From: a virus
Direction: 5' to 3' (one strand)
IMG/VR virus record: IMGVR_UViG_3300042549_004948
Coordinates: 98,470 to 162,469 of that record
Length of the DNA stretch: 64,000 bases
This document shows positions 36,469-42,624 of this stretch, piece after piece. Numbering within the stretch: the first letter of the stretch is position 1; each line of letters opens with the position of its first letter. Both the position numbers and the translations under genes were made by a program. The notes under the pieces were generated by a model that saw only the letters and a list, made by a program, of their open reading frames with translations, ran no database searches and was not told the DNA's origin.

Positions 36469-36980
36469 AAGGTTGTGAGTAGGCCTTTTTTTTTACTTAA
36501 TTTTTATTTGCTTTACAGCCGTACCTTCTGCTGTAGGAACTGTTATAATTAGCAGTCCTCTATCTAAGGAAGCTTCTAGTTTGTTTAGATCAAACTTAGT
36601 TGAAATTTTCCAAGTAAGATTAAAAGATGATCTCTTAATACCTCTGTATATTGGAGACTCTTCAGGCTTATTTGGTTTCTCGTATGTAATTCGTAATTGA
36701 TCACCGTCGACAATGATATCTATATCGTTCTTGTCTAGGCCTACTGCGGCTACTTCAAATCGAATGCCGTCTTCTGTTTCAAAAATGTCTACTGGATGTG
36801 ATATCTTCTGCGTAATTGCAGAAAAGTGTGGTGCTGATTCAAAGAGATCTTTCCAGAGCAAGTCAAATGGATCGAGCTCGAATGGTCTTAATATTCCCAT
36901 ATTGTTTTGTTTTGTGTTCCCTTACGGTGAACGGTTTATAAATGTTTATTTCATAACTAAAGGCCTACTCACAGTACCTT
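36469..36980. repeat. inverted repeat flanking hsp20
   Basis: tgtgagtaggccttt (36474-36488) is the exact reverse complement of aaaggcctactcaca (36959-36973); a further 5 bp aaggt/acctt lies beyond a 2-nt bulge. Confidence 0.9.
36493..36900 (-). CDS. Hsp20/alpha-crystallin small heat shock protein
   Basis: PVDIFE, AVGLDKNDIDI, RGIKRSSF, ASLDRGLLIITVP, IKIK. Confidence 0.92.
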   Translation of the reverse strand: MGILRPFELDPFDLLWKDLFESAPHFSAITQKISHPVDIFETEDGIRFEVAAVGLDKNDIDIIVDGDQLRITYEKPNKPEESPIYRGIKRSSFNLTWKISTKFDLNKLEASLDRGLLIITVPTAEGTAVKQIKIK

Positions 36981-37025
36981 TTATATAAATATATACAATT
37001 ATTGAAGAGAGATAAAATTAATCTT

Positions 37026-37628
37026 TTAAGTAGCATAAGACCACTTATAACCTCCGGTTTGGTTTCTAATACCTTTACATACTTTGCTAATATGCTGATG
37101 AATTACTCCTAGAGATCTTTCGGCCTCTATTATAGAATCCCACCTTTTTATAAACTCACCGTCTAATGTATATTGATTAACTTTAACTGCGGATGAACTA
37201 AGTGATCCTAAATGCTTGCCTTTTTGTACTTCTTTCATTTTATTAATAGTCTGTTCACTAAAAGGTTTATTATATCTAGGATTACCTGATCCCGTCATTC
37301 TTTTACTATGATCAGGCTTTTTTATGCCTTTTAAATGGCCCTTATCTGTTCCACCATCTCCTATCTCTTTTTTCATATTTGCCCATTTATTACTTTTAGC
37401 GACATTAAAAAGATCTGAGTATATTCTACATATTAACTCTAAGTTTTGCCTGTCTATTGTTTTATGCAATATGTATGTTTTAATTTGATCTGAGCTTATG
37501 TTATTCTCTATCAGATGCTGTTTCCATTCTTTACCTGATCCTTTGTACTTAAAAGGATCTTGCTCAGTTTTACCTAAATATAATAGTCCTAATGGACTTT
37601 GTTTAACATATATGTATATTAATTTCAT
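37026..37628 (-). CDS. free-standing GIY-YIG (Seg-like) homing endonuclease with NUMOD3/NUMOD1 domains
   Basis: YIYVK...YLGKT...YKGSG; FSEQTINKMKE; VNQYTLDGEFIKRWDS...GGYKW; start at MKLIYIY. Confidence 0.82.
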   Translation of the reverse strand: MKLIYIYVKQSPLGLLYLGKTEQDPFKYKGSGKEWKQHLIENNISSDQIKTYILHKTIDRQNLELICRIYSDLFNVAKSNKWANMKKEIGDGGTDKGHLKGIKKPDHSKRMTGSGNPRYNKPFSEQTINKMKEVQKGKHLGSLSSSAVKVNQYTLDGEFIKRWDSIIEAERSLGVIHQHISKVCKGIRNQTGGYKWSYAT

Positions 37629-37638
37629 AAAATAAAAA

Positions 37639-37737
37639 TGGACCCAGAGGAAGTAAAGGTCCCGGAATGACCGATACTCCATGAGTCCAATAAGTTATTA
37701 TAGATAGCTGATTCCGGCAACTTTCTATCTATAATAA
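37639..37737 (-). ncRNA. two-hairpin kissing-loop RNA structure upstream of the GIY-YIG gene
   Basis: Two long stems with 7-nt loops CCGGAAT and ATTCCGG that are exact complements. Confidence 0.7.
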
Positions 37738-37755
37738 ATATTACGCATTTATTAA

Positions 37756-40062
37756 TTAGGCATGACCGTCTCTAAGATTCTTTGCTATCTGAGGAATAGC
37801 GTACAAAGGTACATTTAGTTTAGTCGTATTTTCCATGCAATCCTGGACGATACTGGCCGCTTCTTTTGCTTTTGCGTGTTCTACCTCAATTACTAGCTGA
37901 TCATGGATCTGGGCGCATACCCAGCCATTTATGCCTGATTGCTTAAATCTCCTATTAATAGCAAGCGCAGCTCTATTAACTATTGATGCTGCTAGACCTT
38001 GTATTTGTACGTTGCATCCATTATTTAGACCATTAATATAGTCTCTTGATAAGCTCTTTATTTGATCTACGCCGTATTGTCTTTCCATTTCTTTCTTGAT
38101 ATTCCAGTCAAGTAAGTCATCACCAATTTTATCATAGATGGCTTTTACTTTAGGAAGGTGCCTTATCCTACCAACCTGTGTTTTAATATAGCCGTTCTTT
38201 TTAACAAACTCTTTTGATTTAAGCATCCACTTTTTAAGCTCAGGAAACCCATTAAGATATCCATCTATTAGTACCTTAGCTTCTTTTGTTGAAACTCCTA
38301 GATTCATACCTAGTGCATAAGCTCCCATACCATAAGGAATACCTAGGGCATATGCCTTTGCCTTATTACGAACTTTAGGCAGATGCTTTCTCAAAAAGTT
38401 AGGAGCATTTTTATCAGGAGAGTAATCGCTATATCCTTCAGTTTTAATTGCGATAGTAGAATAGAAGTCCCAGTTATTACGGAATATATCCATAAGACCT
38501 TCATCACCAGATACGTGAGCAAACGCACTCGGTTCTAGAGAAGAGTAATCATCATCTATAAACACATTATGTTCTTCATGAATAAAGAACGCTCTAATCA
38601 AGTTATTATACTCGATAACTATCGGATCATCGTCGCCTTCTTCTTTAGGTCTAGGAAGCTGTTGTGCATCAGAACCATAACGGCCTGATACTGTGCCATG
38701 TTGTTTATAATAGAAGTAATATCTACCGTCTTCTTGAGCATCTAAGAAACGATCCATGTACGTACTCTTGATCTTAAGTAGCCTATTGTAAATACGTAGG
38801 CTTTTTGCCCAGTCATATTTGCCGGCAATTGATTGCACAGTGTCATCATCAAACTGAGGTTTGCCGGTCTTAGTGGTAGACAGAGGTTTAATACCTAGAA
38901 CACCGAAAGCGATTTCACCCATTTGATCTTTAGATTGAATGTTAAAATAGTCTCCGTCATTATCTTCTTTCCACAATCTCATACTAATTTTCATTGACAC
39001 ATCTTTATCAAGTACTGAGGGATCTCCGTGTATTAAGAAGTGTTTAGTAGAACATTCAGGAAGTCTCATTAAAGATGACTTAGTAATACTATATTTGCCA
39101 GTCTTTTCAGACTGCTCTAGATCAAACTTCATTTCTTTTACAAGCTCTTGAGCAAATGTGCCTTTGTTATTAGGAGGGTAAGCTTCAGTTGCTTTCATAA
39201 CAACCCAAGCTCTTACATCAGGCTTTTGTAACAACTCTTTTGTAACGAGAGTTTCATATTCTCGTAGCTTTTCTATAATTTTGGCACGACTAGATTTTAT
39301 AATTTCCATGTCAAGCTTTATGCCAACTTGTTCCATAGGAATAGTAACCTCTTTATACAAAGGCATCACCTCATCTTCAAAGAAGAATTGTTCTAGATTC
39401 TCTTCTTTCAATATAGCCATGAAGTGGTGATACACTCTGAGTGTTAAATCGGTATCTGCTGATGCGTATTCTGATAATAATTCAAGATCTGCTTTCCAGA
39501 TCTCGTAGTTCTCTCTTGTAATTGTGCCACCATTATTTTTGATAGACTCTTTCATTTTGATTTGCTCTTCATTTGCAGCCATTTCAACATCTAGACCAAT
39601 ATGTTTTTGAATCATTTTGGCAATGTCTTTAAGACCGAATGCAGAACCTCCCATAAAGCCGGCGCCTTCCTCTTTTACTGTATGAACGAGTAACATTGTA
39701 TCTACATGGAGTGAAGGAAGTAAATCTATATCATAGAAACATTTGACAAATCTAACGTCAAAGGATGCGTTGTGCATCACAAGCTTTTTTCCAATAAGTA
39801 GTAAGATTGTTTTCTTAGCAAGATCATGAGCAAGCTGCCCTTCGATATGAGCGTCTTGAAGTAGCTCATCTTTGAATATCATTGTAGGCATGTAATAGCC
39901 TTTGCCAACTTCTCCAGATACGGAGAAGCCAATGATTTTACCCTTTCTAGGATTAAGACTATTAGTCTCTGTATCGAATGCGATTATCTCATTGTCTTTG
40001 ATATGCTGGACCATGTCTTTCAGCTTATCAATAGTGTCTACTGTAACATAACTTTTATTCAT
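37756..40062 (-). CDS. polA: family A DNA polymerase (3'-5' exonuclease + polymerase)
   Basis: FDTET, HNASFD, YASAD, TVSGRY, DYSSLE, RNKAKAYALGIPYG, QIHDQ. Confidence 0.93.
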   Translation of the reverse strand: MNKSYVTVDTIDKLKDMVQHIKDNEIIAFDTETNSLNPRKGKIIGFSVSGEVGKGYYMPTMIFKDELLQDAHIEGQLAHDLAKKTILLLIGKKLVMHNASFDVRFVKCFYDIDLLPSLHVDTMLLVHTVKEEGAGFMGGSAFGLKDIAKMIQKHIGLDVEMAANEEQIKMKESIKNNGGTITRENYEIWKADLELLSEYASADTDLTLRVYHHFMAILKEENLEQFFFEDEVMPLYKEVTIPMEQVGIKLDMEIIKSSRAKIIEKLREYETLVTKELLQKPDVRAWVVMKATEAYPPNNKGTFAQELVKEMKFDLEQSEKTGKYSITKSSLMRLPECSTKHFLIHGDPSVLDKDVSMKISMRLWKEDNDGDYFNIQSKDQMGEIAFGVLGIKPLSTTKTGKPQFDDDTVQSIAGKYDWAKSLRIYNRLLKIKSTYMDRFLDAQEDGRYYFYYKQHGTVSGRYGSDAQQLPRPKEEGDDDPIVIEYNNLIRAFFIHEEHNVFIDDDYSSLEPSAFAHVSGDEGLMDIFRNNWDFYSTIAIKTEGYSDYSPDKNAPNFLRKHLPKVRNKAKAYALGIPYGMGAYALGMNLGVSTKEAKVLIDGYLNGFPELKKWMLKSKEFVKKNGYIKTQVGRIRHLPKVKAIYDKIGDDLLDWNIKKEMERQYGVDQIKSLSRDYINGLNNGCNVQIQGLAASIVNRAALAINRRFKQSGINGWVCAQIHDQLVIEVEHAKAKEAASIVQDCMENTTKLNVPLYAIPQIAKNLRDGHA

Positions 40063-42609: not shown

Positions 42610-42624
42610 GTAAGAATAAATATT

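What the first reader, a model, noticed from the sequence alone, without database searches (positions are those of the whole stretch)
37026..37741. Kissing-loop RNA at the 5' end of a free-standing GIY-YIG endonuclease gene
The ~100 nt between polA and the nuclease fold into two long hairpins on the coding strand. H1 is TTATTATAGATAG/CTATCTATAATAA (13 bp) with inner GTTG/CAG pairing and loop CCGGAAT. H2 is TGGACTC/GGGTCCA, GGAGTA/TACTTC, GGTC/GACC with loop ATTCCGG. The two 7-nt loops are exact complements. H1 overlaps the ATATTTAT motif and H2 ends about 10 nt before the ATG. Known: simple promoter-overlapping hairpins delay translation of T4 homing endonucleases. I know of no described loop-loop architecture of this kind. 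Inference: a timing switch, or an RNA partner or mobility element of the nuclease.
Basis: partly seen in the sequence, partly recalled or inferred. Interest (0 to 1): 0.75.

Follow-up and report, generated by a model that had tools for sequence, protein, structure and literature searches.

The report
Kissing-loop leader RNA of homing endonucleases
The two hairpins in front of this phage's selfish DNA-cutting-enzyme gene are one copy of a widespread folded RNA leader that I did not find in Rfam or in the papers searched; its two loops always pair with each other through matched mutations, and it most likely keeps nuclease production low.

Summary
On the coding (-) strand, a 13-bp hairpin H1 (37737-37695) overlaps the phage's promoter-like motif. 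A long hairpin H2 (37689-37639) is followed by a U-run and then the ATG. Their 7-nt loops are exact complements.

One locus could be chance, but the family is not. In IMG/VR relatives I found 30 distinct copies with 13 different loop sequences. The loop-loop helix is 97-100% paired, and 6 of its 7 pairs show changes on both sides. Both stems also covary, and G-U exceeds A-C 49:14, which points to the sense RNA.

The leader precedes homing endonucleases of several families (GIY-YIG, HNH, NUMOD-bearing). The same loop code occurs with different families, so a nuclease-specific RNA partner is unlikely. Rfam has no match, and neither the papers searched nor the T4 review read describe it. This scan has already found the same kind of leader on other DNA.

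Best reading: a cis-acting expression-control leader. H2 plus the U-run (6-7 U in 8 nt in 30/30 copies) is terminator-like and abuts a poor start context; the kissing contact locks it to H1. The predicted transcription start lies inside H1, so a T4-like two-transcript switch is possible. The mechanism is inferred, not shown.

The parts
37734..37741 (-). Promoter-like motif ATATTTAT, the 5' edge of the element
   Evidence: The motif occurs 51 times on the coding strand against 13 on the other. It mostly lies 3-30 nt upstream of ATGs and often directly after terminator hairpins. It is the first conserved block of all 30 leaders.
37695..37737 (-). Hairpin H1: outer 13-bp stem (37737-37725 / 37707-37695), 4-nt bulge, inner 3-bp stem (37720-37718 / 37710-37708), 7-nt loop (37717-37711)
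   Evidence: RNAfold. Inner stem 100% paired, with changes on both sides at all 3 pairs. Outer stem 93.6% paired, with changes on both sides at 3 pairs.
37711..37717 (-). H1 loop CCGGAAT, 5' half of the kissing helix
37690..37694 (-). Conserved 5-nt linker between H1 and H2 (part of a conserved unpaired block)
   Evidence: Alignments A2 and A3.
37639..37689 (-). Hairpin H2: 8 + 6 + 4 bp with two internal loops and a 7-nt loop (37668-37662); terminator-like
   Evidence: RNAfold. Changes on both sides at 16 of 18 pairs. Free energy -15 to -25 kcal/mol in all 30 copies.
37662..37668 (-). H2 loop ATTCCGG, 3' half of the kissing helix
37629..37638 (-). U-rich tract between H2 and the start codon
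   Evidence: 6-7 T in the first 8 nt after H2 in 30 of 30 copies.
37026..37628 (-). Free-standing homing endonuclease gene (200 aa): GIY-YIG-like N-domain, NUMOD / I-HmuI-like DNA-binding C-domain
   Evidence: Pfam NUMOD families just under the cut-off. PHROG 'homing endonuclease' and 'HNH endonuclease' hits. Foldseek hit to I-HmuI at 4e-4. It is the only such gene found in the genome.
37756..40062 (-). Family A DNA polymerase, the upstream neighbour; the cassette starts right after its stop codon
   Evidence: Pfam. HEG-less relatives join polA directly to the next gene's promoter motif.
36985..36992 (-). Resident promoter-like motif of the next gene (hsp20), just past the 3' end of the cassette
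   Evidence: The spacer after the nuclease stop resembles the polA-hsp20 spacer of HEG-less relatives such as L022 and L030.

Best explanation
The region is a cis-acting, structured 5' leader RNA. It belongs to a mobile cassette of promoter, leader and homing-endonuclease ORF, inserted right after the polA stop codon.

The sense transcript folds into two hairpins, and their 7-nt loops pair with each other (a kissing complex, either within one RNA or between two copies). H2 is stable, G+C-rich at its base and directly followed by a U-run, so it behaves like an intrinsic terminator or attenuator. It sits 10 nt from a start codon in a U-rich, A-poor context.

I propose that the kissing contact with H1 locks this structure, so that only a small fraction of transcripts gives nuclease. 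This would hold both for read-through from polA and for transcripts from the cassette's own promoter.

Shown: the structure, the loop-loop pairing, the strand, and the link with nuclease genes of many families. Inferred: termination or translation damping, and the role of the lock.
For: Structure: z = -3.6 at this locus.

Family: 30 distinct copies carrying 13 loop codes.

Kissing helix: 100% paired on A2, with 5 of 7 pairs changed on both sides. On A3 it is 97.3% paired with 6 of 7 pairs changed on both sides, 0 of 500 shuffles reach the observed values, and slid controls pair at 27-41%. The covariance model that made A3 contains no pseudoknot, so this is an independent test.

Sense strand: G-U 49 against A-C 14 in the stems.

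Terminator-like H2: -15 to -25 kcal/mol, then 6-7 U in 8 nt, in 30 of 30 copies. The spacing from H2 to the ATG is constant.

Association: the downstream ORFs are homing endonucleases of several Pfam families, and this genome has one leader and one such gene.

Cassette: HEG-less relatives join polA directly to the next promoter motif, with no hairpins.

Host biology: the nearest cultured relative infects Flavobacterium. In F. johnsoniae, initiation is tuned by mRNA structure and favoured by A at -3 (PMC6847099); here positions -1 to -4 are U.

Precedent: T-even nuclease genes are held down by terminators (mobE, segF) and by leader hairpins (PMC2988022).
Against: No transcript ends have been mapped. 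The tool's simple terminator scan does not call H2, because its stem is interrupted.

Neither hairpin covers the AUG or the 10 nt before it, so direct occlusion is not evident.

A terminator alone would not need a covarying loop-loop contact; the role I give it is a guess.

Full 7-bp kissing between two 16-18-bp hairpins joined by 5 nt may be sterically strained. It may require bending at the conserved bulges, or dimer formation.

Some nuclease genes in the same phage group have plain short leaders (L043, L074, L075).

The leader persists at one locus where the nuclease gene is gone (L052).
Confidence: 0.55

Rival explanations
1. T4-like two-transcript timing switch. Read-through RNA from polA contains the full H1 and is silent. 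RNA started at the cassette's own promoter begins inside the H1 5' arm, lacks the outer 7 bp, and is the translatable form.
For: The motif overlaps the H1 5' arm. The F. johnsoniae -7 element lies 4-5 nt from the start site (PMC6847099), which puts the predicted start at about 37729-37730, inside H1. The outer H1 pairs show some changes on both sides, so RNA that includes the promoter region matters. The precedent is I-TevI/II/III, segB and Aeh1 mobE (PMC2988022).
Against: H1 does not touch the start region. H2 and the kissing loops are present in both transcript forms. No alternative pairing of the freed H1 3' arm with the start region is evident by inspection; this was not computed. The start site is predicted, not mapped. 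The phage motif lacks the T at -12 and the G at -5 of the host consensus.
Confidence: 0.2
The nuclease is made only by read-through.
For: The layout of promoter, structured RNA and terminator-like end is that of a small-RNA gene. The leader survives intact at loci where the nuclease gene is broken or lost (L029, L093, L052). Two complementary loops in one RNA, joined by a short linker, favour intermolecular pairing on geometric grounds (inference).
Against: The spacing from H2 to the ATG and the U-rich start region are conserved as part of the module, whichever ORF follows. The same loop code goes with unrelated nucleases, so specific RNA-protein recognition through the loops is unlikely. There is no trans target: the loop 7-mers occur at chance frequency in the genome.
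Confidence: 0.13
3. A DNA-level element: a recombination or shuffling module like the promoter-plus-stem-loop cassettes of T4-type phages, or hairpins formed in single-stranded DNA during homing repair. On this view RNA folding is incidental.
For: The cassette is bounded by copies of the promoter motif. The leader is shared by unrelated ORFs, which implies recombination within or at the edges of the leader.
Against: Covariation in three helices, including a loop-loop helix, is what selection on a folded single strand gives. The G-U over A-C bias points to the sense strand. Duplex DNA has no use for loop complementarity.
Confidence: 0.07
4. Chance complementarity of two unrelated hairpin loops.
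For: The loop 7-mer itself is not over-represented in the window (3 matches against 2.1 expected). Loose two-hairpin candidates also occur elsewhere in the genome.
Against: 13 different loop codes are all complementary in 30 copies.
Confidence: 0.01

Closest known systems
Leader hairpins with an embedded late or middle promoter in T-even homing-endonuclease genes (I-TevI, I-TevII, I-TevIII, segB, Aeh1 mobE), reviewed in PMC2988022
   Same: A structured leader lies directly upstream of a selfish nuclease ORF. A promoter overlaps the 5' arm of a hairpin. The presumed purpose is to hold nuclease expression down or delay it.
   Different: Those are single hairpins that sequester the ribosome-binding site. 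Here there are two hairpins joined by a covarying 7-bp loop-loop helix, and the start codon is left free. The host lineage does not use Shine-Dalgarno sites. One homologous leader serves many nuclease families.
Intrinsic terminators that limit T4 mobE and segF transcripts, and the stable hairpin just upstream of the RBS of seg43(25) in Aeromonas phage 25 (PMC2988022)
   Same: A stable hairpin plus U-run lies at the 5' side of a free-standing nuclease gene, and a downstream promoter restores expression of the neighbouring gene. As in seg43(25), the hairpin abuts the start region but does not cover it.
   Different: The T4 terminators lie inside the coding region and have no partner hairpin. Termination at H2 has not been shown.
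   Same: Two hairpins pair through complementary loops. As in pRNA, both loops sit in one molecule and covary.
   Different: The loops here have no conserved nucleotides, so a ligand pocket like that of guanidine-II is unlikely. There is no antisense partner gene and no packaging context.
Promoter-early stem-loop (PeSL) mobile regulatory cassettes of T4-type phages (recalled from memory)
   Same: A promoter plus stem-loop module is repeated in a phage genome group and flanks shuffled ORFs.
   Different: PeSLs have one stem-loop, no loop-loop covariation, and are not tied to nuclease genes.

Membership tests
T4-type RBS-sequestering nuclease leader with embedded promoter | The hairpin pairs with the ribosome-binding site or start codon | tested here: not met
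   In the MFE and centroid folds, the AUG and the 10 nt before it are unpaired. H2 ends at -11. The same holds in all 30 copies.
T4-type RBS-sequestering nuclease leader with embedded promoter | A promoter inside the hairpin, so that the shorter transcript cannot form it | tested here: inconclusive
   The motif overlaps the H1 5' arm. The start site predicted from the -7 element spacing (PMC6847099) falls inside H1. No transcript data exist.
Intrinsic (Rho-independent) terminator | A stable G+C-rich stem directly followed by a U-run | tested here: inconclusive
   H2 is -15 to -25 kcal/mol and is followed by 6-7 U in 8 nt in 30 of 30 copies. The consensus scan does not call it, because the stem is interrupted and encloses a long upper part.
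Any Rfam 15 family | A match to a covariance model | tested here: not met
   Nothing relevant at E up to 10 over 36500-38300, both strands.
Guanidine-II-type kissing-hairpin riboswitch | Conserved ACGR loop nucleotides that form the ligand site | tested here: not met
   13 unrelated loop sequences; only one loop column is invariant.
GIY-YIG nuclease (the gene behind the leader) | A match to the GIY-YIG catalytic domain | tested here: inconclusive
   There is no Pfam PF01541 hit for this protein and no PDB sequence hit. The N-terminus carries IYV...YLG motifs. The AlphaFold model has the strand-strand-helix-strand-helix order expected of the fold. The I-TevI catalytic domain is only a weak Foldseek hit (rank 27, E 2.3).
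Homing endonuclease DNA-binding module (NUMOD / I-HmuI-like) | A match to NUMOD-type domains | tested here: met
   PF22083 scores 25.6 bits (cut-off 27) and PF07453 scores 22.1 bits (cut-off 22.8), both just under the cut-off. PHROG homing-endonuclease and HNH-endonuclease families match. Foldseek to I-HmuI 1u3e gives E 4e-4, probability 1.00.

The most novel reading that the evidence does not exclude
On this reading the leader is a new kind of RNA device for selfish nuclease genes. Its loop-loop contact would do more than stiffen the fold. It could set whether RNA polymerase stops at H2, as a tertiary-structure-controlled attenuator. Each copy would have its own private loop code, so that copies in one genome do not cross-talk.
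Probability: 0.2. Interest if true: 0.85.

Novelty: new variant of a known kind. Interest (0 to 1): 0.72.

Why it matters
Homing endonucleases are the main selfish genes of large phages. How they are kept harmless is known only from T-even phages, where single hairpins hide a Shine-Dalgarno site.

This is a different solution, shared by many nuclease families in phages of a host lineage that ignores Shine-Dalgarno sites. It has one of the clearest covariation signals one can ask for: 13 loop codes, all matched.

It offers three things. It is a compact, portable expression-control module. It is a natural set of orthogonal kissing-loop pairs. It is also a handle for finding nuclease cassettes in metagenomes. 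The RNA family appears to be missing from Rfam.

Tried and rejected
Searches that found nothing or gave no decision:
- Rfam scan at E up to 10: only noise.
- blastn against cultured phages: no match.
- Covariance-model search of Flavobacterium phage immuto: nothing convincing (E 0.35).
- H1-specific pattern in 185,579 bacterial and archaeal species genomes: one unrelated palindrome in Acinetobacter nectaris with no second hairpin. The element was therefore seen only on phage contigs.
- The simple terminator scan did not call H2.
- PDB sequence search for the nuclease: no GIY-YIG hit.
- Paper search for homing endonuclease + kissing loop + bacteriophage: 3 papers, none on this subject.

Technical points:
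- MAFFT alone misaligned H2 of the more distant copies. I replaced it with a covariance-model alignment.
- My first descriptor scan missed the true locus because of too strict a loop-size filter. This was fixed.

Ideas rejected:
- Hammerhead or other ribozyme: no core motifs in the linker by inspection, and no Rfam hit.
- tRNA-like anticodon arm: by inspection, the H1 loop lacks U33.
- Loop code matched to nuclease family or to insertion site: not so. One code goes with several families, and four codes occur at the polA site.
- 'Different code in every copy of a genome' as evidence of selection: 3 of 3 two-copy contigs differ, but with 13 codes that is expected by chance.

Full report
**Observation.** The genes of this window run on the - strand. 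polA (768 aa, Pfam DNA_pol_A plus 3'-5' exonuclease) ends at 37756. A 200-aa nuclease gene starts at 37628. Read on the - strand, the 127-nt spacer contains, in order:
- the motif ATATTTAT (37741-37734);
- hairpin H1 (37737-37695: a 13-bp outer stem, a 4-nt bulge, a 3-bp inner stem, and the 7-nt loop CCGGAAT);
- a 5-nt linker;
- hairpin H2 (37689-37639: 8 + 6 + 4 bp, loop ATTCCGG);
- ten U-rich bases, then the ATG.

RNAfold gives exactly these two hairpins, at -37 kcal/mol, z = -3.6, with 0 of 200 shuffles as stable. The loops are exact complements.

Taken alone the locus is not overwhelming. The 7-mer is not enriched. My own scan of the whole 162-kb genome for two adjacent hairpins with complementary loops returned a few other loose candidates, although none was as stable.

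**What the genome is.** The window is the last 64 kb of a 162,469-bp, 33% G+C virus record. Its polA is 54.6% identical to that of Flavobacterium phage vB_FspM_immuto. No other cultured phage comes close. It also carries groEL and hsp20.

ATATTTAT occurs 51 times on the coding strand and 13 times on the other. It usually lies 3-30 nt before an ATG and often directly after a G+C-rich hairpin with a T-run. I therefore read it as the phage's promoter element. It resembles the Bacteroidetes -7 element TAHHTTTG, which lies 4-5 nt from the start site in F. johnsoniae (PMC6847099, read). By that spacing the start site would be at about 37729-37730, inside the 5' arm of H1. This is a prediction.

**Relatives.** Protein-guided searches of IMG/VR with the nuclease and with the polA C-terminus gave 85 loci.

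Most relatives join the polA stop codon directly to the promoter motif of the next gene, with no hairpins. The relatives that carry a nuclease gene after polA also carry the two-hairpin leader. Their loops differ but stay complementary. For example, CTACTAC pairs with GTAGTAG in L038, and TTGCGAC pairs with GTCGCAA in L050.

The spacer after the nuclease stop in the window resembles the polA-hsp20 spacer of HEG-less relatives such as L022. The inserted unit is therefore a short spacer + promoter motif + leader + ORF, placed right after the polA stop.

A pattern scan for the conserved 5' block gave many more copies at other genome positions. A covariance model built from 13 copies was searched over all 203 loci, the window and the whole genome. 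It found 30 distinct leaders with 13 loop codes. In this genome it found exactly one.

**Covariation.** On the 13-sequence alignment the loop-loop helix is 100% paired, and 5 of its 7 pairs show changes on both sides.

On the 30-sequence alignment it is 97.3% paired, with 6 of 7 pairs changed on both sides. The few exceptions are rows with an 8-nt pairing that the model put out of register. For the whole structure, 0 of 500 shuffles reach the observed values, and sliding the partners drops pairing from 92.6% to 27-41%. That alignment was fitted by a model that contains no pseudoknot, so the loop-loop result is not circular.

The stems covary too: the H1 inner stem at 3 of 3 pairs, and H2 at 16 of 18 pairs. 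The outer H1 stem is nearly invariant, with changes on both sides at 3 pairs. That fits a 5' arm constrained as promoter DNA and a 3' arm constrained to pair with it.

In the stems G-U outnumbers A-C 49 to 14, so the folded strand is the sense strand. The loop-loop helix is almost purely Watson-Crick (176 of 182 cells).

**Association.** The ORFs behind the leaders match the following Pfam families (27 scanned):

| Pfam family | ORFs matched |
|---|---|
| NUMOD3 | 10 |
| I-HmuI NUMOD-like | 7 |
| GIY-YIG | 6 |
| NUMOD1 | 6 |
| HNH_3 | 3 |
| HNH | 1 |
| HNH_5 | 1 |
| T5orf172 | 1 |

- One loop code can precede several families. The window's code also precedes an HNH_3 gene in L132.
- One insertion site can hold several codes; four occur after polA.
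- Contigs with two leaders carry two codes (L039, L138, L182).
- The pairing is therefore within each element, and the loops do not encode a match to the protein or to the site.
- This genome has one leader and one detectable nuclease gene of these families.
- Three loci keep an intact leader with a decayed gene: a nonsense codon in L029, a 38-aa remnant in L093, and a solo leader in L052.
- Some nuclease genes of the group have plain short leaders (L043, L074, L075).

**The nuclease.** Pfam finds only NUMOD-type domains, just under their cut-offs. PHROGs calls it a homing endonuclease. An AlphaFold model (mean pLDDT 67) has an N-domain with the strand-strand-helix-strand-helix order of GIY-YIG. 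Its well-predicted C-domain matches I-HmuI by Foldseek at E 4e-4. The I-TevI catalytic domain is only a weak hit. 'Homing endonuclease' is safe; 'GIY-YIG' is likely but unconfirmed.

**Mechanism.** H2 is always stable (-15 to -25 kcal/mol), has a G+C-rich base, and is followed by 6-7 U within 8 nt in all 30 copies. The distance to the ATG is constant. That is the signature of an intrinsic terminator, although the tool's simple scan does not call an interrupted stem.

The start codon is not paired, so the T4 scheme of hiding the ribosome site does not apply. The likely host lineage does not use Shine-Dalgarno sites; it tunes initiation by mRNA structure and by A at -3 (PMC6847099). Here positions -1 to -4 are U, and a 20-kcal hairpin ends at -11.

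I therefore favour an attenuator and damper. Most RNA, whether read-through from polA or started at the cassette promoter, stops or is poorly translated at H2. The next gene is served by its own promoter, as in T4 mobE (PMC2988022). In this reading the kissing contact holds H2 and H1 in one compact fold.

Three points remain open. First, why a lock is needed. Second, whether the 7-bp helix forms within one RNA, which would need bending at the conserved bulges because the linker is only 5 nt, or between two RNAs. Third, whether the predicted start inside H1 creates two transcript forms, as in T4.

**Known or new.** Rfam 15 has no match. The paper search returned no description, and the T4 review lists only single hairpins and terminators. 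The element was not found in bacterial species genomes or in phage immuto.

This scan's own notebook shows that the same kind of leader has been noted and followed up on other phage genomes, including a Flavobacterium-type phage with six copies. I repeated the central claims independently on this family: two hairpins, covarying loops, several nuclease families, and absence from Rfam. In my 30 copies I did not see the leader in front of non-nuclease genes.

Noticed in passing
window 36901-36992 (-), and the same region in L009, L012, L017, L028 and others: The hsp20 leader is strongly conserved across relatives and contains two small hairpins, which could be a heat-responsive or other regulatory leader. 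In L068, L070 and L071 a nuclease-like ORF (starting MAIVYQHKRKD) sits directly behind this hsp20 leader in place of hsp20.
   Followed up: no
whole genome G000; window examples at 42623, 34308, 33472, 14533 (-): ATATTTAT is a strand-biased (51 against 13) promoter-like motif. It often abuts a terminator hairpin and lies as little as 3-4 nt from the ATG, which suggests that many genes of this phage have leaderless or near-leaderless mRNAs.
   Followed up: partly
L052:884-998 and L139:7415-7524: The same insertion site upstream of polA holds leader + HNH_3 gene in L139, but a solo leader followed by ATG-TAG in L052. This looks like a clean loss of the nuclease ORF that left the leader behind.
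   Followed up: partly
L029:1235-1840 versus L031:3880-4482: The nuclease gene of L029 is 93.5% identical to that of L031 but carries an in-frame stop after codon 81. Its leader keeps perfect loop complementarity, although H1 is weakened.
   Followed up: partly
window 37682 (-): An in-frame ATG inside H2 would extend the ORF by 18 codons. It is absent in L002 and L003 (CAC in its place), so it is not the conserved start.
   Followed up: yes
L209:5711-5754 (Acinetobacter nectaris): This is the only bacterial-genome match to the H1 pattern. It is an unrelated long perfect palindrome with no second hairpin.
   Followed up: yes
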